Of a stretch of DNA of 64,000 nt, positions 27,952 to 46,225 are shown in pieces. Source of the DNA: Alphaproteobacteria bacterium UBA6376 (lineage in GTDB: Bacteria; Pseudomonadota; Alphaproteobacteria; Rs-D84); assembly GCA_002437665.1 (NCBI GenBank), contig DJQW01000001.1:65304-129303 (forward strand). The letters run 5' to 3'. Under the pieces are notes generated by a model. The model worked only from the letters and a program-made list of their open reading frames with translations, was not told where the DNA came from and did not search any database. Within the stretch, counting starts at the first letter, position 1, and every line of letters begins with the position of its first letter. The position numbers and the translations under genes are program-made.

Positions 27952-29529
27952 ATGTTTATGAACAGATTTTTTGGCTTTTGTACGCTGGGATTGATTCTGG
28001 CGGGATGCAGTGGTGATTACACAAGTCGCGATTGGTCAACCGATTACGGCACGGACGTGGCTGGCGCACCATCACAGATGCAATACGGCGGATTTTCAGA
28101 CAACGCAACCGATAATCACCGCGTGGCGGTACTGTTACCATTGTCGGGCGAAAACGCGGCAACGGGCCGTGCAATCCGCACATCTATTGAAATCGCCACA
28201 CTGCAAAGCGCACCCCAGAGTATGTCTGTCGCATTCTATGACACCGCACGCGATGGCGCAATTTCAGAGGCATTGATGGAAAGTCCCGAAATCGTAATCG
28301 GGCCGGTCTTTGCGGGCGACGCGCGCATTGTTCGTGCAACAAAACCAATGGAAATGCCGGTCTTGTCATTTACATCGGACGCAACCGCATTGGGCGACGG
28401 CGTTATGACAATGAACCTGATGCCCACAAACAGTGTAGAGGCGATTGCCACCGAAATGTCAGCGGACGGCATCAAGAAATTTATTATCTTGGCCCCCGAT
28501 ACGGCGTCCGGTCGCCTGATGGCGGGCACGGCAAAGAATGCCGCATCAATTTATAATATGGATTTGATTGGCATATTCTATTACACATCCGGTAATTCTG
28601 ATTCAATCAAAGACGCAGCGGCCGCCGCATCTATGAACGCGGCACGCACCGCGGCAAACACACGCGCGCGCGAAATCTTGTCTGATATCTTGACACGCGA
28701 ACGCCTGACCGCGATTGAAAAATCATCATTGGAAATTCAACTGGAAAAGATATCAAAGTCCGACACACTGGGCACAATTCCATACGATGGTATTTTGTTC
28801 CTTGGGGGTGCGGCCGATACAACCAGTATCGCATCATTCTTGCGCTATTATGGTGTTGCAGCGCGCGATGCACGCATGTATGGCACGGCCATGTGGGACG
28901 GTTCAAACATTACATCTGATATAACAATGTCGGGCGCAAAATTCGCCGCATTGCCAGAAATGTCTGCAACATTCACAGATGTATATTCACGCGTTGCGGG
29001 TAACGCCCCATCGCACTTGGCGGCATTTGGTTACGACGCCGCAAATTTGGCCATGGGAATGATGTATTCACAGAAATCCAATGCGGCATACCTGCTTGAC
29101 CCCAGTGGTTATGTCGGCACAGACGGCCTGTTCCGTCTGATGCCAAATGGCGACAGCCAACGCGCATTGCGCATCATGCAATTAAACGGCACAGGCGATG
29201 CAACGGTTGTGCGCGCCGCACCACAAAACTTTATTCGTCCAATATATAATATTGAACAGCGTCACATCGCGCCTGCCGCCGCGATGGCATTGGAATCAGA
29301 CGGCATAAATCCAATGGATTATATTCGCATCCCAGAACGCCTGCGCGGCACATATAAATCAAAAACATTTGGTGCAAATATTACGCACCCTGCCGCGCCC
29401 GTACAGCAGGAAAATATAACCGTCCTGCCCGAAGATGACAGCGAACCCATCGCCGCCACGGATTACGAACCAGTAAAACTGGAATCCGTTGACCGCACGT
29501 ATATCGACAGTGTGGAAATATCAGAATAA
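27952..29529 (+). CDS. periplasmic-binding-protein-like lipoprotein (LpoA/LppC-like penicillin-binding protein activator family)
   Basis: Lipoprotein signal ..LAGCSG. VAVLLPLSGENAATGRAIRTSIEIA is typical of the type-1 periplasmic binding fold seen in LpoA. Confidence 0.5.
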   Translation: MFMNRFFGFCTLGLILAGCSGDYTSRDWSTDYGTDVAGAPSQMQYGGFSDNATDNHRVAVLLPLSGENAATGRAIRTSIEIATLQSAPQSMSVAFYDTARDGAISEALMESPEIVIGPVFAGDARIVRATKPMEMPVLSFTSDATALGDGVMTMNLMPTNSVEAIATEMSADGIKKFIILAPDTASGRLMAGTAKNAASIYNMDLIGIFYYTSGNSDSIKDAAAAASMNAARTAANTRAREILSDILTRERLTAIEKSSLEIQLEKISKSDTLGTIPYDGILFLGGAADTTSIASFLRYYGVAARDARMYGTAMWDGSNITSDITMSGAKFAALPEMSATFTDVYSRVAGNAPSHLAAFGYDAANLAMGMMYSQKSNAAYLLDPSGYVGTDGLFRLMPNGDSQRALRIMQLNGTGDATVVRAAPQNFIRPIYNIEQRHIAPAAAMALESDGINPMDYIRIPERLRGTYKSKTFGANITHPAAPVQQENITVLPEDDSEPIAATDYEPVKLESVDRTYIDSVEISE

Positions 29530-29533
29530 AATC

Positions 29534-29556
29534 GCCCGCCAAATGGCGGGTATTTT
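29534..29556 (+). terminator. rho-independent terminator after the LpoA-like gene
   Basis: cccgcc-aaat-ggcggg hairpin plus tatttt. It abuts the left direct repeat of the island. Confidence 0.55.
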
Positions 29557-29719
29557 AGTGGTGGGAGTGGCTGATTCCCTCGCCCACACGGGGGCGTGGG
29601 ACTGCGGGGCATTCGTATGTTGTGTTCCGCGGCGCACACACCGCGCCACACAACAACTCATAGTCGAACCGGCAATCAAATGATTGCGTGCTTCCAATTC
29701 AACACCACATATCACCAAA

Positions 29720-29752
29720 ATAAAAACACCCGCGCGTCGGGTGTTTTTATTT
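29720..29752. terminator. bidirectional terminator inside the island's left arm
   Basis: acacccgcgcgtcgggtgt hairpin flanked by A and T runs. Confidence 0.5.
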
Positions 29753-30341
29753 TGGTGGGGCGCACTTTACTCACGATATTCAGACATACAAAATCTCCTA
29801 CCAAGAATTACCCCAGAACAGGGATTATCAGGGAATTTTTATAAAAAACGTCATATAAAGGCCCAACTAATACAACTTATGGTTGTATTACACCCACAAA
29901 AACCAACAAAATTTCCAAAAATTCCCTATACAACAAAACAGGGAATTATTTTCTTAATATCAGGGATATCTTTTGTCATTTTCCTATATTAACAGACCTA
30001 CCTGAACACATAAACTTTAAGGACGCTTTATAAGAAGGGAAGTGAAGCATTTTTCATGGCTGTGCCACGAGTAAACTTTCATTTTCCCTTATATATAGAG
30101 GTCCCTAAAAAATTTTAGGACCGATAAAAAACTTATAAGGAGTGTTTTATGAACAACTTAAACATACAAAACATAGAAATCGCCCGGATACGAGAATACT
30201 AAAACAACCCAAATTCGCATACCTCTAGTTCGCCTAGGATATTTTTACACTAAAAACATCTTTTTTTATTATCTACACAACTCATGCACCTTGGGTTTTA
30301 ATTTCCGCAAAACATTACATCTCATTAAAAATGATACATTT

Positions 30342-33300
30342 TCATTTTAAAGACGCTATAAATCTTTTCAACTTCATTACTTCTTTATCTTTTTCTTCAA
30401 ACCAATTCGTTGACCAGATTCTATAAAACTCAAACCCAAAATGATTTTCTATCCATTTTTGCCTATGCATATCTGCTGCATATGCCTGATCTGTATTATG
30501 ATATGCCTTCCCATCGCACTCTAAAGCTACTTTATGACCGTTTACTTCTAACATAAAATCAAGTCTATACCCACCAACAGGATATTGTAAATGTATGTGT
30601 TTTTTATCTATAAATTTAAGTAATTCATTATATACTTCTTCTTCAAAAACAGATTCAGTAAGTCCCTCCATTGTTGGTTGCGACGAATCTTCAACAATCG
30701 TTGTTGTGCCACTTCTCCGTATATCGTAGCTATACTTACACAATTGACTTAATATATCTTCCACAGTTGCTTTATCACCATCAGAAACGGCTTTTGCATA
30801 TGCAATATAAGCATAAAATATGGCTGCCCTATTATTTTCATGCGACCTGTCTAACAGTTCCTTGTATGTTGAATATGCCTTTTTTGGAATGGACGTTACA
30901 ACATACAGTTTACTTTTTGCTCTTGTTATCAAAACATTTAACAATTTGTATCCATTATCTGTCAATATAGATCCAAAACGTTGATAAAACTTTCCTGATT
31001 CATCTGGCCCAAATGTAGTAGATATTATAATGATATCCTTTTCATCGCCCTGAATATTTTCTAGATTTTTAACAAAAAGCCCCGCTTGTTGCAATTTTTC
31101 AAATCTATCTTTAAAAGCTTCATCTTTATATGATGTTTCATATAACAATGTTTTTATACAATTTCTCTGATGTATATTAAATGTTGCTATTCCAACAGAT
31201 GGCATTGTGCCATCCGAATTCGGTTTTATTTCATTAAGGATAGAAATAACCTCTACTGCTTCTTTTGGATTAATGTTGCTTGCTTTTCCGGAACTATAAA
31301 TACCACTTACTTCTCTTATTTCTATTGGGTTATAATCTTTTCCAACGACTGGCAAAGGACACAAATTACCACCATAAAATGCAGCATTAGAAAAGTTGAT
31401 TAAAGCAGGATGCTTTGAACGATAATGAAAATCTAAATATGACATATTTTTATATTTTAAATTTTCTGCAAATACCAACAAGGATTCTGCATCAAGTTGT
31501 GCATTTACAAGCATATTTCCGTCTGTATTACCACCATTATTCCCGTCTAAACCAGTTTGGAAATAATTAGAAGGCGGCATTTGGTGTTGATCTCCAGCAA
31601 TTATTTTATACTTTCCTCTTATCATTGCCGTATAAACATCTTCTATTCTTAATTGACTGGCTTCGTCAAAAATAACCAAATCAAAAGACCCCTGCTCCAA
31701 TTTAAACAATGTATTAGCTACAATTGGATTTACTAAAATAACAGGGAAAATTGTCGTAAAAGAAGCAAAATCTTTATCAATAATCTGTTTTAGAGATAAC
31801 CTTTTCCCAAATTTTTGATTTTTCTTTAATGCAAATAATGCTTTAAAACCATATTTGTCATCTAACCTTGTCATTGCATTTTGTATTCTTTCGTCCCACA
31901 TACTAAATGTACGCTTCAAATTCTGCTTTTCTAAATCACTATAAATACTCTTTAACAAATTCAAATTCGTGTCGTTTTTATGAAATCTTATCTTTGTTTT
32001 TGATTCAAAATCCAACAACATATAATAATAATATGAAGCAAGAAATGTATTTTCCCAATTATCAACATTGACTGTTTCTAAGATGTCCATCAAGCTTCGA
32101 TTGGCTTTTTCAAACTTTACCCATGTGTTATAATCTTCAATTTTATCCATATTGTCTTTCAAATCAAACAAAGATGACAACACGTTATTAAACATTAATT
32201 TACACTCTTTAATATCAGAAAAATGTTGTAAATCGTCATTAATTAACGGGAACTGTTTAACAATATCGTGCTTTAAAGAATCTATACGATTTTTACAATC
32301 AATTATATTTTTATACTCATTTTTATGCTCCGCAAACGTCAAATTGCATTCAACTAACGCCTTATATGCTCCATCTAAATTTTTATATATTTTGCTTTGC
32401 TGAGACCTTACTTTTTTCTCTAAAATAGACATATCTTTTAATAACGTTTTTAAATCGATGTATTCTTTCCATTTTCCTAATTTGTTATCCAGTTCTTGAT
32501 ATTTGTTATATTGAGAAACATTTGACTGCACAGAAGCCAACAACCGTTTGATGGTTATTAAAATATCATATGCCTCAGAAACATTCTTAGAAAACAATCT
32601 ATTAAATATACCAAATTTCCCTATATCAAAATTCTCTCCCAACAAATCATTACCTTGCTTATATTTTTCCTTTATCAAGGTAATATTGTCTAAAATATTA
32701 CTTAAAAGTTGTGTTTTTTCAACAGCCGTATCATCAAAATCTATTTCAACATCAAGAGATTCTGCCTTTTCATTAAATGCACTAAATAATACATTTAAAG
32801 CTTCTATCTCATTTGGCGTTAATTCATTTTTATATAACTTTTTTATATCCTTATAAATTGGCTCTATTGACTCAAGATACGCTATCTTTTCTTCAATACA
32901 CTCTTTATTAGAAACTATTGATACGTCATTACATTCAAAATTAGATTTTTTCACATATGCATCGAACTCTTCTATAAAAGATATCGAATCGTTTAATTTT
33001 TTCTCTATTTCCTTCTTTTGCTTTATGTTTATCACATCCGCGAAATCATCAAAATCTATATATTTAAAATACGAACTATTCGTATCTTTTATATAGGAAA
33101 ACAGTAATGCTCCCTTTTTGATAATATTTAAATATTCATTTAAAGCATCTTCAGTAAACGTAAACTTAAAGTTTCCAAAATCATTCTTAGTTGATTCAAA
33201 TTCTGGATTTTTAGAAAATCTCAAATACTCACCGACTAAATCTTTCCAATTTTTCCCAGCAAAAATAGGCTTACTAGACTCTTTATACGATGCGTTAACA

Positions 33301-34631
33301 GAATCTCTAAGCTCTATAAATTGGTTATATTTTTGTTCAAAAACCCCTTCATCAAAGCCATACAAATTATGAGAATAACCATCCCCATCATATATTCTAC
33401 GTGCCTTTTCAACAATGCTTTTTCTGTCTTTTACAACATCGTCTATTACTGCACAAAAACAATCTAATTTTTTAGATTCTAAATTTTTTACAAGAACATC
33501 CAATGCTGTTTTCTTCTCGCAAACAACCAATGTCTTTGCGCCATTCGCCAACGCATTTGAAATAATTGCAGAAATAGCCTGAGATTTACCAGTTCCCGGA
33601 GGCCCTTGAATAATTTTGAACTCATCAGAATTTAATGTATCTATTATTTCTCTTTGGCTTGGGTCAACTTCAAAAGAGGTAGTTGTGCTAGTCTGAAATG
33701 GCTCAATAGTCAATTCTTCTGAATTAAATTTATCTACATTTTCTAATAATTCTCTTGTTGCTTCGATTATAGGCTCCTTTTGCGACCTAAACAATCCAAA
33801 CACACCGCTCCACTGAACCCAAGCGGTTCCACTAGTTATTTTTTCTACCTTCTCTTTATTTTCTGGACACTTTTGTAAAGAAATATTAGTTATGTCTTCT
33901 TTGATTCCTAAACCTTTATTAAGGTTATTAACATAAGCTATTATCTCATCTTCAGACAAAACCCCGTCATCCAATTCATCATTTGTTAATTTTGGTAATA
34001 CTACTTTTTCATCATTTTCTATATGCGATACCAATAATTCATTAACTTTGATAGGACTATCTTCCGTTTTTGATATAAACCACTCATTTCTTCTGTTTGA
34101 TTTTTCTATATCCAAAGACCATATAAATATTGGAGCTATGATTATTTTTTTAGGGTCTTTCTTATCCGGCTTTACTAACAGAGGATATCCAAAACCAAAA
34201 TTCTTTAAACCTGTTTCCAGATACATGTCTTCGTTATCTGCGACGATATTGTCTAACTTTCTAGAAACGTCAAACAATTTGCTCTTTTCATCTTCTGACA
34301 TTTTAGTCTGGGATTTTTCATCCCACGATATAGAAAATTTAAATTTCGGTTTTGTCAAAAGGCTTTCCAAAAAACTACCAGCAAGAGTGCTACTTTTGTT
34401 TTCTTCACCAACAGACAAATCAAACAAATCCAATCTTGTATGATTTCTACCAGGTATAGCATTAAGATGGATTGACCTACCATTTCCAACAGTTAACTTA
34501 CTAAGAAGTTTTTCTAAAAAAAACTTGTCAAATTTAATTTGTGATACAATACTCGCGCCTACCTTTTTGACATTTCTCTTTGGTGTATCAACATATTCTC
34601 TATTTGAAGGTTTTAAAAAAGTAAACGCCAT
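30342..34631 (-). CDS. DUF4011-like / Upf1-like SF1 helicase (AAA_11+AAA_12) / C-terminal DUF559 (Vsr-like PD-(D/E)XK) endonuclease fusion protein
   Basis: 1429 aa. Walker A IIQGPPGTGKSQAIS; motif II VIFDEASQL; motif III IIAGDQHQMPP; motifs V and VI QGDEKDIIIIST and LLNVLITRAKSKLYVV. C-terminus GYRLDFMLEVNGHKVALECDGKAYH (DUF559-like). N-terminal LKNFGFGYPLLVKP...IIAPIFIWSLDIEKS resembles DUF4011. Very AT-rich. Confidence 0.85.
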   Translation of the reverse strand: MAFTFLKPSNREYVDTPKRNVKKVGASIVSQIKFDKFFLEKLLSKLTVGNGRSIHLNAIPGRNHTRLDLFDLSVGEENKSSTLAGSFLESLLTKPKFKFSISWDEKSQTKMSEDEKSKLFDVSRKLDNIVADNEDMYLETGLKNFGFGYPLLVKPDKKDPKKIIIAPIFIWSLDIEKSNRRNEWFISKTEDSPIKVNELLVSHIENDEKVVLPKLTNDELDDGVLSEDEIIAYVNNLNKGLGIKEDITNISLQKCPENKEKVEKITSGTAWVQWSGVFGLFRSQKEPIIEATRELLENVDKFNSEELTIEPFQTSTTTSFEVDPSQREIIDTLNSDEFKIIQGPPGTGKSQAISAIISNALANGAKTLVVCEKKTALDVLVKNLESKKLDCFCAVIDDVVKDRKSIVEKARRIYDGDGYSHNLYGFDEGVFEQKYNQFIELRDSVNASYKESSKPIFAGKNWKDLVGEYLRFSKNPEFESTKNDFGNFKFTFTEDALNEYLNIIKKGALLFSYIKDTNSSYFKYIDFDDFADVINIKQKKEIEKKLNDSISFIEEFDAYVKKSNFECNDVSIVSNKECIEEKIAYLESIEPIYKDIKKLYKNELTPNEIEALNVLFSAFNEKAESLDVEIDFDDTAVEKTQLLSNILDNITLIKEKYKQGNDLLGENFDIGKFGIFNRLFSKNVSEAYDILITIKRLLASVQSNVSQYNKYQELDNKLGKWKEYIDLKTLLKDMSILEKKVRSQQSKIYKNLDGAYKALVECNLTFAEHKNEYKNIIDCKNRIDSLKHDIVKQFPLINDDLQHFSDIKECKLMFNNVLSSLFDLKDNMDKIEDYNTWVKFEKANRSLMDILETVNVDNWENTFLASYYYYMLLDFESKTKIRFHKNDTNLNLLKSIYSDLEKQNLKRTFSMWDERIQNAMTRLDDKYGFKALFALKKNQKFGKRLSLKQIIDKDFASFTTIFPVILVNPIVANTLFKLEQGSFDLVIFDEASQLRIEDVYTAMIRGKYKIIAGDQHQMPPSNYFQTGLDGNNGGNTDGNMLVNAQLDAESLLVFAENLKYKNMSYLDFHYRSKHPALINFSNAAFYGGNLCPLPVVGKDYNPIEIREVSGIYSSGKASNINPKEAVEVISILNEIKPNSDGTMPSVGIATFNIHQRNCIKTLLYETSYKDEAFKDRFEKLQQAGLFVKNLENIQGDEKDIIIISTTFGPDESGKFYQRFGSILTDNGYKLLNVLITRAKSKLYVVTSIPKKAYSTYKELLDRSHENNRAAIFYAYIAYAKAVSDGDKATVEDILSQLCKYSYDIRRSGTTTIVEDSSQPTMEGLTESVFEEEVYNELLKFIDKKHIHLQYPVGGYRLDFMLEVNGHKVALECDGKAYHNTDQAYAADMHRQKWIENHFGFEFYRIWSTNWFEEKDKEVMKLKRFIASLK

Positions 34632-34775
34632 TGATGTTTCTCGCTCTATTTTGCGATGTGAATGGTATCATATATACATACAAATCTCAATATTTTTATA
34701 TTATATACCGTCTTTATTAACTTGACTTCTTGCTTCTTTAGAGCGGTAATTGGACGACATTACAAAGGAGTACAT

Positions 34776-35219
34776 ATGTCAAGTTTCACAAAACTGCCGC
34801 AGAGTTTGGTAGAGTTAAAACGCCTGCCATTTGCTGACCGACAGCGATTATGGGCAAAATACTCGCCCCACCCATTTCGCCGGCAAAATACAGCACTGTG
34901 GTATTACATGCAATGCGACCGATTAAAACTGCGAATATTGCCAAAACATATGGTAAAAATTCGCAAATATATGAACAATCCTGACGCTTGTTTAACCCAT
35001 GTTTATCGTAATAAATATAACCTGGGGTCTGGCACGATCATTACCAAAATATTTCGTGGAAAACAACATATCATAACGGTCGGCGACAATAATGTATTCG
35101 CGTATAACGGGAAATCATACCACAGTTTATCCGGCATAGCACGCGAAATTACCGGAATTAAAATATCTGGTCCAGACTTCTTTGGACTAACCCCAGGGAA
35201 TAAAAATGTCAATCAATAA
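34776..35219 (+). CDS. DUF2924 family protein (recombinase-associated)
   Basis: C-terminus LGSGTIITKIFRGKQHIITVGDNNVFAYNGKSYHSLSGIAREITGIKISGPDFFGL matches the DUF2924 hallmark (SLSAIA..ITGT.WNGP.FFGL). aaaggag RBS. Its stop overlaps the recombinase start by 14 nt. Confidence 0.75.
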   Translation: MSSFTKLPQSLVELKRLPFADRQRLWAKYSPHPFRRQNTALWYYMQCDRLKLRILPKHMVKIRKYMNNPDACLTHVYRNKYNLGSGTIITKIFRGKQHIITVGDNNVFAYNGKSYHSLSGIAREITGIKISGPDFFGLTPGNKNVNQ

Positions 35220-36795
35220 GTGCGCGATTTATGTTAGAAAATCCACAGAACACGGGTTAGACATGGAATTTAACTCCCTGCAAAACCAGGAAGAATCATG
35301 CCTGGCATATATCGCGTCACAATCATTTAACGGATGGAAATACTGCAAAACATATACCGATGCGGCGATATCTGGCGGAACCATGGAACGGCCCGCATTA
35401 AAACAAATGCTGGACGATATGGCACACGGTTTAATAAACACGGTTGTTGTGTACAAGGTTGATCGCCTGTCGCGTTCAATTCTGGATTTTCACAACATGA
35501 TGAAATATTTTGAAAAATATGGCGTAAATTTCGTGTCCATCACCCAGTCATTTGATACTTCCAATTCTATGGGGAAATTGACATTAAATATGTTGCTATC
35601 ATTCGCACAATTTGAACGCGAAGTGGCCGGTGAACGCGTACGAGACAAGATACGAGCCAGCAAAGCCAAAGGAATCTGGGTCGGCGGAAATCCACGCCTG
35701 GGATACGATATCATAAATAAAAAATTGGTTGTAAATAAAACTGAAGCAGGCACAGTAAAATTACTGTTTAACAAATACTTGGAACTGCAATCTGTCACCC
35801 TATTAAAGAAATTTGCGAACTCCAATAATATTCACAACAAACAGTGGACAACCAAAACTGGAAAGATCCGTGGCGGTCGACCATTTCAAAATCAAACCTT
35901 GTTAAACCTGTTGCACGATAAAATCTATATTGGAATTATGGAGTGTAAATCAGCAAAAACATCAGCACCAGGCGAACATACCGCCATTATCGCAACGGAA
36001 TTATTTAACCGCGTTCAAGCGGCACTGCGCAACAACACAAATGGCAAGATTGGGAATTCACACAACGCCCCCAACCTGCTGACCGGAAAATTATTTAATG
36101 ATGATGGCATAAAATTCACAAACCAACAGACGCGACAACAGAATAAACAAACCAAATATTATTATGCAATCCCTGGTTTATATATTCAGTCATCCCCAGT
36201 GGACGAAATTGTTATAAATATCATTGATGAATTTATGAATGCCAATCTGGAACGAATCCACAGCGATTTTGGCAACGCATTAAAACACATAGATTTTTCA
36301 AATTTACCATTTCCGACCAAGCGCGATTTTATCAGACGAATCTTACAAAAAGTCATTTATTCCGAAAACAGGCTGACGCTGTTTATTGACCAAAATGCAG
36401 ATATAAAGGAATTCATAAACACAGAATTTACAAACGAAAATCAAAACAAAATGGATTACGTCATTGGCGACAAAAGTATAATAGTAAGACGCGAATTCAT
36501 CATGCAACGATATAACAAACGAAATGATTATAACGCTGGGAAATCCGCCGCAATCAGCATAAGCGATAACAATCATCTGGTTGTGCGGGCATTTGCACGC
36601 GCATTTAAATATCGCAAAATGTATGAAGAATGCGGTGATTATAAATCAATCGCCAAAATGGAAAACACATCAGAAAGCAGTGTTTATCGTCACCTGAAAC
36701 TGGCCTATATGCACCCGGACACCGTCAATGCAATTATGTCCGGCACCATGCAATGCAGTGTGGATAAGTTATTCAATATTCAAAACAATCTATAA
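35206..36795 (+). CDS. large serine recombinase (resolvase/invertase N-terminal domain + recombinase domain)
   Basis: AIYVRKSTEHG... catalytic Ser context, ...VYKVDRLSRS..., FEREVAGERVRDK. 529 aa, a length typical of large serine recombinases. Confidence 0.9.
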   Translation: MSINKCAIYVRKSTEHGLDMEFNSLQNQEESCLAYIASQSFNGWKYCKTYTDAAISGGTMERPALKQMLDDMAHGLINTVVVYKVDRLSRSILDFHNMMKYFEKYGVNFVSITQSFDTSNSMGKLTLNMLLSFAQFEREVAGERVRDKIRASKAKGIWVGGNPRLGYDIINKKLVVNKTEAGTVKLLFNKYLELQSVTLLKKFANSNNIHNKQWTTKTGKIRGGRPFQNQTLLNLLHDKIYIGIMECKSAKTSAPGEHTAIIATELFNRVQAALRNNTNGKIGNSHNAPNLLTGKLFNDDGIKFTNQQTRQQNKQTKYYYAIPGLYIQSSPVDEIVINIIDEFMNANLERIHSDFGNALKHIDFSNLPFPTKRDFIRRILQKVIYSENRLTLFIDQNADIKEFINTEFTNENQNKMDYVIGDKSIIVRREFIMQRYNKRNDYNAGKSAAISISDNNHLVVRAFARAFKYRKMYEECGDYKSIAKMENTSESSVYRHLKLAYMHPDTVNAIMSGTMQCSVDKLFNIQNNL

Positions 36796-36906
36796 CAGAA
36801 TCTCCAGTTCCCGAAATGCCGATTGTATGTATATCGGTATTTTTGGGCTATTTCGCCATACATACAAAATATGTGCAGGCCGCACAATCGCCCAAATTCG
36901 GGCAAT

Positions 36907-36938
36907 AAAAACACCGACCACAACGGGTCGGTATTTTC
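36907..36938. terminator. terminator after the recombinase gene, abutting the tRNA-Tyr 3' end
   Basis: accgaccacaacgggtcggt hairpin plus atttt. Confidence 0.55.
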
Positions 36939-37025
36939 TGGTGGGAGTGGCTGGATTCGAACCAGCTCAGGCTTAAGCCAACAGATTTACAGTCTGCCCC
37001 GGCTCTCCAACTCCGGCGCACGCCC
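36939..37025 (-). tRNA. tRNA-Tyr (GTA), 87 nt with long variable arm; slightly non-canonical
   Basis: Minus-strand read: GGGCGTG-CG-CCGG-AGTTGGAGAG-CCGG-G-GCAGA-CTGTAAA-TCTGT-TGGCTTAAGCCTGA-GCTGG-TTCGAAT-CCAGC-CACTCCC-A-CCA. Anticodon GTA. One C:U mismatch in the acceptor stem and no U8. Confidence 0.6.
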
Positions 37026-37105: not shown

Positions 37106-37180
37106 TGGTGCGGGCAGCGGGAATCGAACCCGCATTTCAAGCTTGGAAGGCTTGCATACTAGCCTTTGTACTATGCCCGC
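37106..37180 (-). tRNA. tRNA-Gly (TCC)
   Basis: Minus-strand read: GCGGGCA-TA-...-CAAGC-CTTCCAA-GCTTG-AAAT-GCGGG-TTCGATT-CCCGC-TGCCCGC-A-CCA. Anticodon TCC. Confidence 0.85.
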
Positions 37181-37231: not shown

Positions 37232-38203
37232 TTATTCTGGCACGCCATTTGGCGGTGTGATGTCGGCCGCCCCCGTTTCGTACACGGTTTGAAACACCGG
37301 CGCACCAGCCGCCGATGCATCGCCCCCTGGGTGCGGCAACGCATGTGCACGATACATATTTAACAAGAAATAATACCAACTGTTCGGTTGCTTTTTTGCA
37401 AACTCGCTGCGCCGATGAATTTTGTATATGAAGCATGTGCGCGACAAATACCGCCACGCGTCCATATCAGCGGCGCGCCCCAAGAAGTACGAAAAATACT
37501 TTACATTACTGTTCAGATATGGAATCTGGCTGAACCAAATACGGTGACACCACGGGTGATATGTAAACAACACCGTCACAAACCAATGAAAGAAAAAGTA
37601 ATCAATCGCCCTGCGTTCGTGACGCCAATACTCTTCCAGAAAAACACGTATACAACGTATGAAATAGTTGTTCGGTGCGGCGTGAATAAAGAAATTAGAT
37701 ACATCTTTCTTGTTCGGATTTTGCAATATGAAAAACGTCTGTTTCATAATAAAGTTCGGTATTTTGTCCATCATCAGACACGACGCATCAATCCACGTGC
37801 CACCATACATGTCCAACAATGCCACCCGCACATAGTCCGAAAAATGTGCAGGTTCAATAATTCCGCGACGATATTTATCCATAATATGCGCCGGAATATC
37901 CAAATACTGTGACACATTTTTCTCAGTAATAATTACCGCTTGCGGGTAAAAGCAAAATATAGAATTCAATCCCATTTGAATAAAATCTGGACGTTCATCT
38001 TGCAGCCACATTGTCCACACGCGGTTGACCGGCGGAACCGTCAAATTGCACTTTGGAATTTGATGTTGCGGCATACCCTGCACCATTTTAGTGACATACA
38101 AATACCGACGCAGGTAATCCTTGGTTGCCGATTTTTTCCCACAAAAAATTTTGCGTATATAAAAGCGTACCCAACGATACCAGTTTTCAAATATTCTGAA
38201 CAT
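37232..38203 (-). CDS. glycosyltransferase with DXD sugar-binding region (paralog of 11285..12211)
   Basis: VWTMWLQDERPDF...HFSDYVRVALLDMYGGTWIDAS parallels IWTLWLQGEDKAPE...HFADICRVELLYEHGGIWLDST. Confidence 0.55.
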   Translation of the reverse strand: MFRIFENWYRWVRFYIRKIFCGKKSATKDYLRRYLYVTKMVQGMPQHQIPKCNLTVPPVNRVWTMWLQDERPDFIQMGLNSIFCFYPQAVIITEKNVSQYLDIPAHIMDKYRRGIIEPAHFSDYVRVALLDMYGGTWIDASCLMMDKIPNFIMKQTFFILQNPNKKDVSNFFIHAAPNNYFIRCIRVFLEEYWRHERRAIDYFFFHWFVTVLFTYHPWCHRIWFSQIPYLNSNVKYFSYFLGRAADMDAWRYLSRTCFIYKIHRRSEFAKKQPNSWYYFLLNMYRAHALPHPGGDASAAGAPVFQTVYETGAADITPPNGVPE

Positions 38204-44449: not shown

Positions 44450-46225
44450 ATGAACCTGTTTGATTCGGCTTTTTTATGTCTGGACATTGGCACGTCGGGT
44501 GTACGTGGCATGGGACATCGCGTGCGCGGTGGCCGACTGGACAAATCCGCCGTATTCAGCGTGGACAGTTTTGATACCGTTTTCGCGATAAAGTCCGTTA
44601 TTGACGAACTGGAACGTATGGTTGGCGCACGATTTGACGACGCATATGTCACGGGTAATTTTGGCGCATCAATCTTTGATATGTCCGCCAAAAGCACAAA
44701 ATGGAACGGCGAACACAAAATCACCGCATCGGATGTCCGCGCGCAAATCGCACAAATCAGTGTCCCAGACGGCTATTTTCCAATGCATATTATACCACTG
44801 CGCTATGATACACCAACGGCGCGCAATATGGTATCACCCGTTGGTTACACTGATCGCCAGTTGATATCGGCATTTGGAACAATTATGTACCAGCGTGATG
44901 CGTTTGAAAGCGTATCAACAAAACTGCGCCATGCGCACATTTTACCAAACAGTTTCTATGACCCACAATGGTTGCTGAATGCCGCCCTGCGCCAGAAAAA
45001 ACAGACCGTTATGTTTCTGGATTTGGGCGCAGAATTTACATCTGTATCCATTTGGATGGATCGTGGGCCGGTATGGCACGCCAAGATTCCATTGGGCGGG
45101 ACACATATATCACGCGACATCTCAGAAAAACTGCATATCGGATTTGATGATGCCGAACGCATCAAACGCGCGGTCGCATGTCTGTACCCAAAGGAAATGG
45201 ACAGATTTACCCCCGCTGACACCGCATACGAATTTTCACGCGGCGATATAAATGACATATTCTTGCCGCACATGGTTGAAATCGCATCGCAAATTGCGAA
45301 TGCATCCAGTGGCGCGATTGCAAAATATCACCCAACAAAAATCATTCTGACGGGTGGCGGCGCAACAACCGACGGCGCAACAGAATTTATTGAAAATGCA
45401 TTTTCAATTCCAACCGAAAACATCGGCGGCGATGCATCGGTACGCGCCCTGTCCGCATTTATCTGGAATGCAGAGGCCGCACATCGTGGCGCATATCTGG
45501 CACGACATGACCGCTGGGCACGACGCTGGGCGCGCATTACAAAATTATTCCACCACAAACAAAAACGCCGCACGCAGTTTATTCCGATTATGCCCAGTAC
45601 ACTGTGCTTTAACATGCGCAAGCAATCAACGTATTCAATGTTTCGTGCGGGCGGCATATCGATGATACACGTCGATATTATGGACGGTTTTTACGTTGAC
45701 CGTGTTGCCGGCGGAATCCCCGAATTAAAATTGATTCGCGCCCACACCGACGCGCACCTGCATGTACACCTGATGACCGAGAGTCCATCTGTCTGGGCGG
45801 CTGATGCCGTTGCGGCGGGTGCAAACACCGTAATCATGTCAACAAATACGTCCGGCCTGCGTGCGGCGGTGCGGGGCGTACGTGCGGCGGGCGTGCGCGC
45901 GGGCGTTGCAATCAACCCAGAAACATCGGTTGATATATTAAAGCCAATCCTGCGTGATTTGGACGAGGTTATGATTATGACCGTGCGCCCAGGTGCGGCT
46001 GGGCAAGAGTTCCAGACCGAATGTCTGAAAAAAATCGAAATATTGGCGGCAACACGTCGTCGCTATGGCTTAAAATTCGTAATATCTGTTGATGGTGGCG
46101 TGAACGATAAAACGGCACAAATGTGCTGGGCCGCCGGCGCGGATTTACTGGTCAGCGGTTCATATCTGGCGCGCAGTCCGGATTTCCCATTGGCGGTTCA
46201 GAGTTTATTGAAAAAACAAAAATAA
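44450..46225 (+). CDS. ftsA: FtsA fused in frame to a ribulose-phosphate 3-epimerase-like domain
   Basis: N-terminal 385 aa or so is FtsA (LDIGTSGVRG, ILTGGGATTDG, amphipathic RWARRWARITKLF). The C-terminal 200 aa or so is Rpe-like (IMPSTLCFN.., HVDIMDGFYV, HVHLM, VAINPET, MIMTVRPGAAGQEF, ISVDGGV). No stop codon lies between them. Confidence 0.75.
   Translation: MNLFDSAFLCLDIGTSGVRGMGHRVRGGRLDKSAVFSVDSFDTVFAIKSVIDELERMVGARFDDAYVTGNFGASIFDMSAKSTKWNGEHKITASDVRAQIAQISVPDGYFPMHIIPLRYDTPTARNMVSPVGYTDRQLISAFGTIMYQRDAFESVSTKLRHAHILPNSFYDPQWLLNAALRQKKQTVMFLDLGAEFTSVSIWMDRGPVWHAKIPLGGTHISRDISEKLHIGFDDAERIKRAVACLYPKEMDRFTPADTAYEFSRGDINDIFLPHMVEIASQIANASSGAIAKYHPTKIILTGGGATTDGATEFIENAFSIPTENIGGDASVRALSAFIWNAEAAHRGAYLARHDRWARRWARITKLFHHKQKRRTQFIPIMPSTLCFNMRKQSTYSMFRAGGISMIHVDIMDGFYVDRVAGGIPELKLIRAHTDAHLHVHLMTESPSVWAADAVAAGANTVIMSTNTSGLRAAVRGVRAAGVRAGVAINPETSVDILKPILRDLDEVMIMTVRPGAAGQEFQTECLKKIEILAATRRRYGLKFVISVDGGVNDKTAQMCWAAGADLLVSGSYLARSPDFPLAVQSLLKKQK

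What the first reader, a model, noticed from the sequence alone, without database searches (positions are those of the whole stretch)
29551..36959. AT-rich integrative island of about 7.4 kb at the 3' end of tRNA-Tyr, flanked by an imperfect 28-bp direct repeat
tattttagtggtgggagtggctgattcc at 29551-29578 is nearly identical to tattttctggtgggagtggctggattcg at 36932-36959. The right copy is the last 20 nt or so of tRNA-Tyr (T-arm, acceptor 3' strand and CCA) plus 8 nt beyond it. The left copy is an orphan tRNA-3' fragment that carries a 1-nt deletion. The interior is far more AT-rich than the surrounding chromosome. It carries a recombination module next to attR and one very large cargo gene. 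Duplication of a tRNA 3' end around an inserted element is a standard integration signature. One caveat: large serine recombinases normally leave no long direct repeat, so either the repeat is the scar of an earlier tyrosine-integrase event, or this DUF2924/serine-recombinase module uses an unusually long attachment core.
Basis: partly seen in the sequence, partly recalled or inferred. Interest (0 to 1): 0.8.

Follow-up and report, generated by a model that had tools for sequence, protein, structure and literature searches.

The report
Serine-integrase defence island at tRNA-Tyr
A 7.2-kb, AT-rich, phage-derived island carrying a candidate anti-phage helicase-nuclease was inserted at the very 3' end of tRNA-Tyr, most likely by a large serine integrase, an enzyme class hardly known to target tRNA genes; the 28-bp repeat that drew attention is an older scar 200 bp outside the island.

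Summary
The repeat is real. A 15-nt exact core, TGGTGGGAGTGGCTG, occurs only twice in the window. The right copy is the 3' end of tRNA-Tyr. The interior has 34% GC against about 47% outside.

The left copy is not the island boundary. Two related genomes without the island (L105, L115) keep that copy plus about 180 bp. This relic corresponds to window 29559-29752 and directly abuts an intact tRNA-Tyr.

The true junctions are 7-bp cores, TGGTGGG, at 29753-29759 and 36939-36945 (CCA, discriminator, three acceptor bases). The island is 7,186 bp. It holds:
- a left arm with CAGGGAAT repeats;
- a 5' stump of a ParB-methylase gene;
- a 1429-aa PDC-S37/Hhe-like helicase-nuclease;
- DUF2924 plus a 529-aa large serine recombinase (LSR);
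- a terminator that replaces the tRNA's own.

Among relatives of the recombinase, 59 of 67 informative loci have a convergent tRNA within 3 kb (Tyr, Ser, Leu). One identical element sits at two different tRNA-Ser genes.

Same-species strains keep both ends but swap defence cargo.

Verdict: a new variant of a known kind, of moderate interest. No excised form was seen, so current mobility is unproven.

The parts
27952..29529 (+). LppC/LpoA-like lipoprotein gene; chromosomal left flank
   Evidence: Pfam LppC 4.3e-11. Directly precedes tRNA-Tyr, apart from the relic, in L105, L115 and L111.
29534..29551 (.). Bidirectional terminator hairpin of the LpoA-like gene, followed by TATTTT
   Evidence: Terminator-like on both strands.
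29559..29577 (-). Orphan tRNA-Tyr 3' fragment: CCA, acceptor 3' strand and T-stem up to the T-loop, with one G missing.
   Evidence: 15-nt exact core plus ATTC. The same fragment with the same gap is present in L105 and L115, the relatives without the island.
29578..29752 (.). Body of an older gene-less relic of about 190 bp, GC 0.54. It ends in a hairpin with perfect 20-nt arms (29713-29732 / 29738-29757) and a T-run. It is not part of the present island.
   Evidence: 84.5% identical to L105 and 88.8% to L115, where it abuts the intact tRNA-Tyr. Hairpin is I4. A homologous family of units lies at other tRNA 3' ends.
29753..29759 (.). Left junction core (attL) TGGTGGG; the next base is G instead of the tRNA's A
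   Evidence: Window matches L105 up to this core and diverges after it. Related elements start at TGGCGG or TGGTGGG.
29760..30148 (.). Island left arm (P' side), non-coding, GC 0.33, with a CAGGGAWT/AATTCCCT motif array at about 29819-29970
   Evidence: Shared at 97-99.8% by all same-species cargo variants. nhmmer profile hits the left ends of elements whose LSRs share 42-100% identity with the window's. Motif positions.
30149..30221 (+). 5' stump of a ParB-N6/N4-methyltransferase gene. Codon 18 is a stop here, and homology to the full gene of variant 4 ends at 30221.
   Evidence: Alignment with L002 12198-13457 and its translation. PHROG methyltransferase/ParB hits for the full gene.
30342..34631 (-). 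Cargo: 1429-aa protein with DUF4011, SF1 helicase (AAA_11/AAA_12) and MTES_1575 endonuclease domains; candidate anti-phage gene
   Evidence: Pfam. PADLOC PDC-S37 1.6e-133 and Hhe 7.4e-70. NCBIfam ProA and Hhe matches fall below the equivalog cut-offs.
34776..35219 (+). DUF2924 gene (147 aa, AAGGAG 7 nt upstream), overlapping the recombinase start by 14 nt
35206..36795 (+). Large serine recombinase (529 aa), reading towards the tRNA
   Evidence: Resolvase 1.1e-39 and Recombinase 1.7e-10. phrog_95 integrase 6.9e-90. TP901-1 catalytic domain 1.3e-24. Foldseek hits to LSR-DNA complexes.
36796..36938 (.). Island right arm (P side), with terminator hairpin 36913-36932 plus ATTTTC directly before the tRNA end. 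36780-36907 is replaced in strain L012 by 1.2 kb carrying a PD-T4-7-like gene.
   Evidence: The hairpin-ATTT(T)C motif is conserved in the tRNA-Tyr clade.
36939..36945 (.). Right junction core (attR) TGGTGGG: CCA, discriminator and three acceptor bases of tRNA-Tyr, supplied by the island
36939..37025 (-). tRNA-Tyr(gta), intact; 100% identical to the gene at unoccupied sites
37106..37180 (-). tRNA-Gly(tcc), upstream partner in the same tRNA cluster; chromosomal right flank
   Evidence: Same pair in all tRNA-Tyr-clade loci.

Best explanation
The host is a gut alphaproteobacterium of the 'Candidatus Enterousia' type.

Window 29753/29760-36938/36945 is a 7,186-bp integrative element derived from a temperate phage or satellite. 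It was inserted by its own large serine recombinase (LSR, 35206-36795) at the extreme 3' end of tRNA-Tyr. That the LSR was the inserting enzyme is inferred.

Strand exchange lies inside the 7-bp core TGGTGGG (shown). The exact dinucleotide is not resolved.

The element's right arm re-supplies the last 7 bases of the tRNA, including CCA, and a terminator hairpin. The tRNA therefore stays intact.

Recognition probably relies mainly on the conserved tRNA half-site (acceptor and T-arm). The other half-site varies between insertions (inferred).

The upstream, translationally coupled DUF2924 protein is probably a DNA-binding accessory or directionality factor. It may bind the CAGGGAAT array in the left arm (speculative).

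The phage packaging genes that sit at the left end in sister elements have been lost here except for a 73-bp stump. A single-gene helicase-nuclease defence candidate has replaced them. The slot between the left arm and DUF2924 acts as an exchangeable defence-cargo site.

The 28-bp repeat belongs to an older, gene-less relic of about 194 bp (29559-29752). Its junction in the tRNA T-loop is what tyrosine-integrase elements typically leave. The island landed next to this relic.
For: (1) Unoccupied sites. L105 (LpoA gene 91.7% nt identity) and L115 (73.6%) have LpoA, the relic and intact tRNA-Tyr, with no LSR or helicase. The window matches them up to TGGTGGG at 29753-29759 and again from 36939.

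(2) The GC content steps from 0.54 to 0.336 at 29760.

(3) Of 67 loci encoding LSR relatives with at least 3 kb of downstream sequence, 59 have a convergent tRNA within 3 kb (median distance 1,153 nt). The background is 4 same-orientation tRNAs in 1.06 Mb (binomial P about 1e-91, treating loci as independent). The closest full-length relatives (69-96% identity) sit at tRNA-Tyr. Those at 52-60% sit at tRNA-Ser(gga/tga/cga). Those at about 43% sit at tRNA-Leu, tRNA-Val and tRNA-Ser.

(4) An identical LSR (P0095), with 12.5 kb of 99.93% identical element sequence, lies at tRNA-Ser(tga) in L099, L100 and L103 and at tRNA-Ser(gga) in L101 and L102. The chromosomal flanks differ, and identity ends after TGGCGGA.

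(5) The left ends of related elements begin with TGGCGG or TGGTGGG, followed by a homologous arm with CAGGGAAT repeats. Tandem arrays show right-arm|TGGCGG|left-arm junctions.

(6) No other integrase lies in the island.

(7) The LSR is full length, with an invariant R11-K12-S13, and is 99% identical to a 29-member protein cluster. It matches phrog_95 integrase and solved LSR structures.

(8) Same-species contigs keep 29530-30014/30221 and 34720-36779 at 97-99.8% identity but carry four different cargos: the helicase-nuclease; the same plus a PD-T4-7-like gene; a type II R-M system plus PDC-S20; and R-M plus PDC-S39 plus terminase/ParB-methylase.

(9) L098 has an intact tyrosine-integrase element at the same tRNA-Tyr. 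It leaves a displaced fragment that ends at the same T-loop position as the relic's.
Against: No excised circle or attP junction was found for this element: the IMG/VR scan found nothing, and the only matches among the fetched loci are the attL junctions themselves.

Every contig seen that encodes an identical LpoA-like or glycosyltransferase (Caps_synth) flank protein is occupied. The element may therefore be fixed and no longer mobile.

The empty sites come from sister lineages, not from the same species.

For the other tRNA-Tyr-clade loci, no left junction was found within the 10-kb flanks.

The LSR has no detectable zinc-ribbon Pfam match and no conserved Cys4. Its model is only moderate (pLDDT 71), so it is an atypical LSR.

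I found no convincing dyad symmetry in the reconstructed attP.

The origin of the relic is not settled. It is more similar to the relic of distant L115 than to that of close L105.
Confidence: 0.8

Rival explanations
1. One reading: one 7.4-kb island spans 29551-36959, bounded by the 28-bp direct repeat, and the DUF2924/serine-recombinase module uses an unusually long attachment core.
For: The repeat is real and tRNA-derived, and its two copies bracket the AT-rich region.
Against: Relatives without the island keep the left copy and the following 180 bp, next to an intact tRNA. The GC break is at 29760, not at 29551. Related elements start at a 6-7-bp core. The identical element found at two tRNA-Ser genes shares only TGGCGGA with its targets.
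Confidence: 0.04
2. Fixed remnant: the element was inserted by its LSR long ago but is now immobile in this species. Only homologous recombination between the conserved arms moves cargo in and out, and the LSR is retained for another reason or is decaying.
For: All contigs seen that encode identical flank proteins are occupied, and they share both arms at 97-99.8% identity with four different cargos. The phage genes are reduced to a stump. No attP junction was found.
Against: The LSR and DUF2924 ORFs are intact and nearly identical across strains. Both arms and cores are intact. A sister element moved recently between two tRNA-Ser genes.
Confidence: 0.35
3. A tyrosine integrase, since lost, inserted the whole region at tRNA-Tyr. 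On this view the serine recombinase is a passenger, for example a resolvase or invertase of the former phage.
For: Tyrosine-integrase elements do use this same tRNA-Tyr (L098). In the accessible literature, tRNA targeting is characteristic of tyrosine integrases (PMC7192596).
Against: The LSR gene lies at the tRNA-proximal end, in a fixed orientation, in 59 of 67 loci across four tRNA identities. No tyrosine integrase is present in the fully visible 7.2-kb island. The core is 6-7 bp, not 15-20 bp.
Confidence: 0.04

Closest known systems
Phage serine integrases (phiC31, Bxb1, A118, TP901-1, SPbeta)
   Same: An N-terminal resolvase-type catalytic domain plus a recombinase domain. The predicted fold aligns to solved LSR-DNA complexes. 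The core shared between junctions is short. The integrase gene lies next to one end of the element.
   Different: The target is the 3' end of tRNA genes rather than a protein-coding gene. No zinc-ribbon Pfam match and no conserved Cys4 were found, and the C-terminus looks like an HTH. The upstream partner is DUF2924. That the characterised enzymes use sites in ORFs is taken from PMC10654092 and PMC7192596 and from my own knowledge.
Wolbachia phage WO integration module (large serine recombinase next to a DUF2924 protein)
   Same: The same gene pair in an alphaproteobacterial temperate phage (PMC11376236). A ParB-methylase/terminase packaging module is also present in sister elements here.
   Different: From my own knowledge, the reported WO attachment sites are not tRNA genes. 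The sequence relationship between the two LSRs was not measured here.
Classical tRNA-linked genomic islands and prophages with tyrosine integrases (P4-like, Islander-type)
   Same: Insertion at the 3' end of a tRNA gene, with the element restoring the gene. The integrase lies next to the tRNA. Tandem accretion occurs at one tRNA. Defence cargo is carried.
   Different: The enzyme family differs. The shared core is 6-7 bp at the CCA end, rather than 15-20+ bp from the T-loop or anticodon loop. The relic at 29559-29752 and the second element in L098 look like this classical type.
SCCmec / Ccr recombinases
   Same: LSR-family enzymes (best NCBIfam match is CcrB, 8.9e-35, far below its cut-off). 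They insert a cargo island at the 3' end of a conserved housekeeping gene without inactivating it (my own knowledge).
   Different: The target is rlmH, not a tRNA. The host phylum and cargo differ, and there is no DUF2924.
S-Int islands at t(m)RNA genes predicted by TIGER (Mageeney et al. 2020), and the minority of Prochlorococcus tycheposon-like elements that carry an LSR
   Same: Computational cases of an LSR element at a tRNA gene. Mageeney et al. report 14 of 297 and state that such use was previously unreported and needs proof (PMC7192596). In the bioRxiv tycheposon preprint, 910 of 937 elements carry a tyrosine recombinase and the rest an LSR (10.1101/2020.12.28.424599).
   Different: Here a whole clade shows the association (59 of 67 loci). 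The junctions, empty sites and a two-site element are defined. I could not check whether any of the published cases belongs to this clade.
Hhe / ProA / PADLOC PDC-S37 helicase-nuclease defence genes
   Same: The domain order DUF4011, SF1 helicase, C-terminal MTES_1575/DUF559-type nuclease. The PDC-S37 HMM matches at 1.6e-133.
   Different: Scores are far below the NCBIfam equivalog cut-offs for Hhe (284 against 2000 bits) and ProA (429 against 1500). PDC-S37 is itself only a candidate system.

Membership tests
Large serine recombinase / serine integrase | N-terminal resolvase-type catalytic domain with the serine nucleophile | tested here: met
   PF00239 1.1e-39 over residues 7-157. R11-K12-S13 is invariant in 19 homologues. 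TP901-1 integrase catalytic domain 1.3e-24.
Large serine recombinase / serine integrase | Recombinase domain (PF07508) following the catalytic domain | tested here: met
   PF07508 1.7e-10 over residues 179-277. The A118 integrase C-terminal region matches residues 163-321.
Large serine recombinase / serine integrase | Zinc-ribbon domain with an inserted coiled coil | tested here: inconclusive
   No zinc-ribbon Pfam hit at E<=0.01. No conserved Cys beyond C6 and C32. The model has a beta-rich region at 296-430 with short helices at 329-379, and it aligns to full LSR structures over 385-430 columns.
Large serine recombinase / serine integrase | attL and attR share only a short core around a 2-bp crossover | tested here: met
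   The core is 7 bp (TGGTGGG) in the window and 6 bp (TGGCGG) in the tRNA-Ser clade. The crossover dinucleotide itself is not resolved.
Large serine recombinase / serine integrase | Catalyses attP x attB integration, with excision needing a directionality factor | not testable with these tools
   Needs an in-vitro or in-vivo recombination assay.
Classical tRNA-gene island (tyrosine-integrase type) | Tyrosine recombinase gene inside the island, next to the tRNA | tested here: not met
   No PF00589 match in any ORF between 29760 and 36938. Compare L098, where such a gene lies 138 nt from tRNA-Tyr.
Classical tRNA-gene island (tyrosine-integrase type) | The distal end is marked by a displaced tRNA fragment of 15 nt or more | tested here: not met
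   The 15-19-nt fragment at 29559-29577 lies 194 bp outside the island and persists at sites without the island. The island's own junction shares 7 nt.
PADLOC PDC-S37 / Hhe / ProA helicase-nuclease defence proteins | Match to the family HMM | tested here: met
   PDC-S37 1.6e-133 over residues 320-1427.
PADLOC PDC-S37 / Hhe / ProA helicase-nuclease defence proteins | Score above the NCBIfam equivalog cut-off for Hhe or ProA | tested here: not met
   ProA scores 429 bits against a cut-off of 1500. Hhe scores 284 bits against 2000.
PADLOC PDC-S37 / Hhe / ProA helicase-nuclease defence proteins | Protects against phage | not testable with these tools
   Needs a heterologous expression and plaque assay.
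DUF2924 (PF11149) | Match above the Pfam gathering score | tested here: met
   62.6 bits against a cut-off of 31.2.
Gene-less att-flanked remnant (CIME-like), for the relic 29559-29752 | Flanked by att-type repeats of the target and lacking any recombination gene | tested here: met
   The tRNA fragment lies on the left and the tRNA core (or, at unoccupied sites, the intact tRNA) on the right. The unit is 194 bp and lacks any recombination gene.
Gene-less att-flanked remnant (CIME-like), for the relic 29559-29752 | Derived from, or mobilised by, an identified autonomous element | tested here: inconclusive
   The T-loop breakpoint matches that of the L098 tyrosine-integrase element, but there is no sequence homology to it. 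Similarity is phylogenetically discordant.

The most novel reading that the evidence does not exclude
The DUF2924-linked LSRs of gut 'Enterousia'-type Alphaproteobacteria form a dedicated family of serine integrases that target the tRNA CCA end.

On this reading they read essentially one conserved half-site (the tRNA acceptor and T-arm) and exchange strands within CCA plus 3-4 bases. That would explain three things seen here: they switch between tRNA-Tyr, -Ser, -Leu and -Val; they re-enter occupied sites to build tandem arrays; and they serve as the chassis for exchangeable defence cargo.

DUF2924 would be a new DNA-binding cofactor, either a directionality factor or an arm-binding factor acting on the CAGGGAAT repeats.

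A second unexcluded novelty is that the units of about 190 bp at tRNA 3' ends are a new gene-less mobile element.
Probability: 0.45. Interest if true: 0.7.

Novelty: new variant of a known kind. Interest (0 to 1): 0.55.

Why it matters
In the accessible literature, targeting of tRNA genes is treated as a hallmark of tyrosine integrases. The only statement I found on serine integrases calls their use of t(m)RNA genes previously unreported and in need of proof (PMC7192596).

This window belongs to a clade in which the association is the rule. For this clade, junctions, empty sites, tandem arrays and one element at two different tRNA genes can all be read from sequence. That gives a concrete attP/attB pair for testing how a serine integrase recognises a tRNA gene.

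If the enzymes are active, they would integrate into sites that are conserved across many bacteria, which is attractive for genome engineering.

The window also shows how a decayed phage element in a bacterium with a genome of about 1 Mb has become a slot for swapping anti-phage genes.

Finally, it is a warning for island-calling methods. A long tRNA-derived direct repeat near an island need not be that island's boundary.

Tried and rejected
- Rfam scan of 29400-30400 at E<=10: only terminator look-alikes far below their gathering scores.
- RNAalifold on ten relic units in the tRNA-sense orientation: only the terminator hairpin is supported, so a structured RNA is not supported.
- Exact or degenerate attP junction pattern in IMG/VR: no match. 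Among the fetched loci, the left junction sequence occurs only at attL of same-species contigs.
- LSR relatives in IMG/VR: only short contigs or tandem integrated copies, and no free phage genome that would give attP directly.
- Left junctions of the other tRNA-Tyr-clade elements (L018-L022, L092, L098): not found within 10 kb.
- Inspection by eye of the reconstructed attP for dyad symmetry: a possible ATTCCT/AGGAAT pair in the tRNA-Ser-clade junction of L080, and nothing convincing for the window. No claim is made.
- Look-up of P0026 contexts: no new junction, only an inverted packaging module.
- The relic as a chromosomal feature or as part of the LSR element: rejected. Homologous units occur at tRNA-Ser and tRNA-Glu without LSR elements, LSR elements occur without them, and the unit can lie on either side of an LSR element.
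- The repeat as a dispersed repeat: rejected.
- Literature searches for DUF2924 function and for serine integrases at tRNA genes: one incidental DUF2924 mention (Wolbachia WO) and no experimental case of an LSR targeting a tRNA gene.
Full report
**Observation**

tRNA-Tyr(gta) lies at 36939-37025 on the minus strand, followed by tRNA-Gly(tcc) at 37106-37180. They share an exact 15-nt core, TGGTGGGAGTGGCTG, at 29559-29573 and 36939-36953. After the core the left copy lacks one G and then shares ATTC (family D16). With up to two mismatches the core occurs only at these two places in 64 kb, where 0.08 matches are expected. The shared 'tatttt' before the core is the T-run of two unrelated terminator hairpins. 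GC drops to 0.27-0.36 inside, against about 0.47 outside.

**Gene content**

- 27952-29529 (+): an LppC/LpoA-like lipoprotein.
- 30342-34631 (-): a 1429-aa protein with DUF4011, the SF1 helicase domains AAA_11/AAA_12 and a C-terminal MTES_1575 endonuclease.
- 34776-35219 (+): DUF2924.
- 35206-36795 (+): a 529-aa protein with Resolvase and Recombinase domains.
- 37232-38203 (-): a capsule-synthesis-type glycosyltransferase beyond the tRNAs.

The large protein matches the PADLOC candidate system PDC-S37 (1.6e-133) and, more weakly, Hhe. Its NCBIfam matches to ProA and Hhe are far below the equivalog cut-offs. It is therefore a relative of known single-gene helicase-nuclease defence proteins, not a member of the named equivalogs.

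**Host and strain variants**

The proteins occur in gut metagenome-assembled Alphaproteobacteria. Related genomes are named 'Candidatus Enterousia', and one complete genome is 0.96 Mb.

I retrieved contigs that encode exactly the same LpoA-like protein or glycosyltransferase. All of those seen carry DUF2924 plus the recombinase next to tRNA-Tyr. They share window 29530-30014/30221 and 34720-36779 at 97-99.8% identity, but the DNA in between differs. Four cargo variants exist:

1. the helicase-nuclease (as in this window);
2. the same, plus a 336-aa PD-T4-7-like gene between the recombinase and the tRNA;
3. two methyltransferases, a type II restriction enzyme and a PDC-S20-like KAP NTPase;
4. 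the restriction-modification genes plus PDC-S39, and a ParB-methyltransferase/DUF5681/large-terminase module.

Window 30149-30221 is the first 24 codons of that ParB-methyltransferase gene, here with a stop at codon 18. The element is therefore phage-derived, and its middle is an exchangeable slot for defence genes.

**Where the island really ends**

A metagenome scan with the LpoA-like protein found sister lineages without the island. In L105 (LpoA gene 91.7% nt identical) and L115 (73.6%), the LpoA terminator is followed by:

- the same orphan tRNA-Tyr fragment, with the same missing G;
- about 180 bp that match window 29579-29752;
- a hairpin with a T-run;
- then, directly, the intact tRNA-Tyr.

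The usual genes lie beyond. The window is collinear with these sequences up to TGGTGGG at 29753-29759. It diverges from base 29760 (G instead of A) and is collinear again from TGGTGGG at 36939-36945. GC is 0.54 in 29559-29752 and 0.336 in 29760-36938.

The inserted element is therefore 7,186 bp, and its two junctions share 7 bp: CCA, the discriminator and three acceptor bases.

**The recombinase family targets tRNA genes**

A scan of one genome per species returned 80 loci with relatives of the recombinase (42-96% identity). Of the 67 with at least 3 kb downstream, 59 have a tRNA gene within 3 kb of the recombinase stop, with its 3' end facing the recombinase (median distance 1,153 nt). The rest of the 1.06 Mb held four tRNAs in that orientation.

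- The closest full-length relatives sit at tRNA-Tyr.
- The 52-60% group sits at tRNA-Ser(gga), (tga) or (cga).
- The group at about 43% sits at tRNA-Leu(gag), tRNA-Val(tac) or tRNA-Ser(tga).

Most of the eight exceptions show another copy of the element or a more distant tRNA, which indicates tandem arrays.

One recombinase sequence (P0095) is found, together with 12.5 kb of 99.93% identical DNA, at tRNA-Ser(tga) in three contigs and at tRNA-Ser(gga) in two others. The chromosomal genes beyond differ, and the common sequence ends after TGGCGGA. This is the signature of recent site-specific integration at two related targets.

**Anatomy of the ends**

On the tRNA side, every element ends with a hairpin, ATT(T)(T)C(C), and then the tRNA's TGG. 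On the far side, elements begin with TGGCGG (tRNA-Ser clade) or TGGTGGG (this window). A variable arm follows, and about 60 nt further in lies a conserved array of CAGGGAAT motifs in both orientations. A profile of this arm finds the left ends of elements across the whole identity range. Several loci show right-arm|TGGCGG|left-arm junctions, as expected if a new element enters the rebuilt tRNA end of an earlier one.

Strand exchange must lie within the 6-7-bp core.

The element re-supplies the last seven bases of the tRNA and a terminator. The tRNA-Tyr sequence is 100% identical at occupied and unoccupied sites.

**The proteins**

The recombinase has an invariant R-K-S at positions 11-13. It matches the TP901-1 catalytic domain (1.3e-24) and the A118 recombinase domain. 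It belongs to the phage integrase family phrog_95 (6.9e-90). Its AlphaFold model (pLDDT 71) aligns to solved complexes of SPbeta-type, Bxb1, phiC31 and A118 integrases over up to 430 columns. It has no zinc-ribbon Pfam match and no conserved cysteine cluster, and it ends in an HTH-like helical bundle. Some homologues hit HTH_7. It is thus a divergent LSR.

**The relic**

Units of about 160-200 bp homologous to 29559-29752 occur at tRNA-Tyr, tRNA-Ser(tga), tRNA-Ser(gga) and tRNA-Glu 3' ends in other genomes. Each starts with 15-20 nt of tRNA 3' end up to the T-loop (GGATT), usually identical to the local tRNA. Each continues with CCCTCGC... or GTAATTCCC..., and ends in a terminator that abuts either the intact tRNA or the left core of an LSR element. 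In L064 the unit lies between the LSR element and the tRNA, so the two kinds of insertion are independent.

A T-loop breakpoint with a block of about 19 nt is what tyrosine integrases typically leave. L098 shows an intact tyrosine-integrase element at the same tRNA-Tyr whose displaced fragment ends at the same position. I therefore read the relic as a scar or miniature derivative of such an element, at about 50% confidence.

Two things remain unexplained. The unit is more similar to that of distant L115 (88.8%) than to that of close L105 (84.5%). And L104's unit at tRNA-Tyr starts with a fragment of a different tRNA. No RNA family or conserved fold was found.

**Comparison with what is known**

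The chemistry and the short core are those of phage serine integrases. The logic of inserting at the 3' end of a conserved gene while restoring it is that of tyrosine-integrase tRNA islands and, among serine recombinases, of SCCmec.

In the literature I could search:
- Surveys of mycobacterial prophages assign tRNA sites to tyrosine integrases and short-core sites to serine integrases (PMC10654092).
- A survey of 2,168 genomes found 14 of 297 serine-integrase islands at t(m)RNA genes. It stated that such use had not been reported and needs experimental proof (PMC7192596).
- A minority of the tRNA-linked Prochlorococcus elements described with the tycheposons carry an LSR.
- I found no experimental case.

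The present clade makes the association systematic and gives defined sites. I rate it a new variant of a known kind.

**What is shown and what is inferred**

Shown from sequence:
- the repeat;
- the island limits and the 7-bp core;
- unoccupied sites that retain the relic;
- the family-wide tRNA association;
- one element at two tRNA genes;
- cargo exchange between conserved arms.

Inferred:
- that the LSR is the enzyme that inserted the island;
- that recognition relies mainly on the tRNA half-site;
- that DUF2924 is a cofactor;
- that the helicase-nuclease defends against phage.

Not shown: current mobility. No excised form was detected, and all same-species contigs seen are occupied.

Noticed in passing
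window 29559-29752; also L105 11608-11799, L115 11627-11817, L111 5900-6084, L097 1090-1268, L064 11768-11939, L039 16854-16996: A family of gene-less units of about 160-200 bp at tRNA 3' ends (Tyr, Ser, Glu). Each has a tRNA fragment up to the T-loop, a GC-rich body and a terminator. The window's copy is closer to that of a distant lineage (88.8%) than to that of a near one (84.5%). This may be a miniature mobile element.
   Followed up: partly
window 29819-29970: An array of CAGGGAWT / AATTCCCT motifs in the island's left arm. The array is conserved in the left arms of elements whose LSRs share only 42-60% identity with the window's. These are probably protein-binding sites (DUF2924, ParB-methylase or a packaging protein).
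   Followed up: partly
window 36939-37025: tRNA-Tyr has a C4:U69 mismatch in the acceptor stem (5' GGGCGTG / 3' strand CACTCCC). The tRNA-Tyr sequence is 100% identical in L105 and L115, so the mismatch is native.
   Followed up: no
window 35206-36795: The serine recombinase lacks a conserved four-cysteine zinc site and a zinc-ribbon Pfam match. It ends in an HTH-like helical domain, and some homologues hit PF02796 HTH_7. This is an atypical LSR architecture.
   Followed up: partly
L098 12814-18393: A second element lies between the LSR element and tRNA-Tyr, forming a tandem array at one tRNA. It carries a 502-aa tyrosine integrase and a REP_ORF2-G2P-like replication protein, and it leaves a 19-nt tRNA fragment.
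   Followed up: partly
L080 ~846, L086 ~12840, L078 ~13650, L118 ~2620, L119 ~12590, L035 ~14310, L075 ~810 and ~10215: Tandem LSR elements joined as right-arm|TGGCGG|left-arm (attP-like junctions). This implies that an occupied tRNA end can be used again as a target.
   Followed up: partly
L012 11444-12454 (replaces window 36780-36907): A 336-aa PD-T4-7-like gene sits between the recombinase and the tRNA in a same-species strain (L012) and other relatives. It has been lost in this window, leaving 128 bp.
   Followed up: partly
L036 (CAVGNU010000015.1): A contig with a 96% identical recombinase and the same tRNA-Tyr junction is filed under a Bacteroides fragilis bin. It is probably a mis-binned alphaproteobacterial contig.
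   Followed up: no
window ~44450-46225 (+) (= L011 1979-3754): A 591-aa product with both PilM/FtsA-type and ribulose-phosphate 3-epimerase Pfam hits, next to FtsQ. This is an unusual fusion or a gene-calling merge.
   Followed up: no
L138 5929-9732: In the P0026 element the ParB-methylase/DUF5681/terminase module is inverted and lies directly upstream of DUF2924. This suggests an internal inversion or a different permutation of the element.
   Followed up: no
L104 11600-13660 and L106 11620-12340: In close relatives without the LSR island, other small inserts occupy the same site: a 2-kb segment whose genes were not identified, and a 0.75-kb insert with a small ORF flanked by TGGTGG. The LpoA/tRNA-Tyr gap is a multi-element hotspot.
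   Followed up: no
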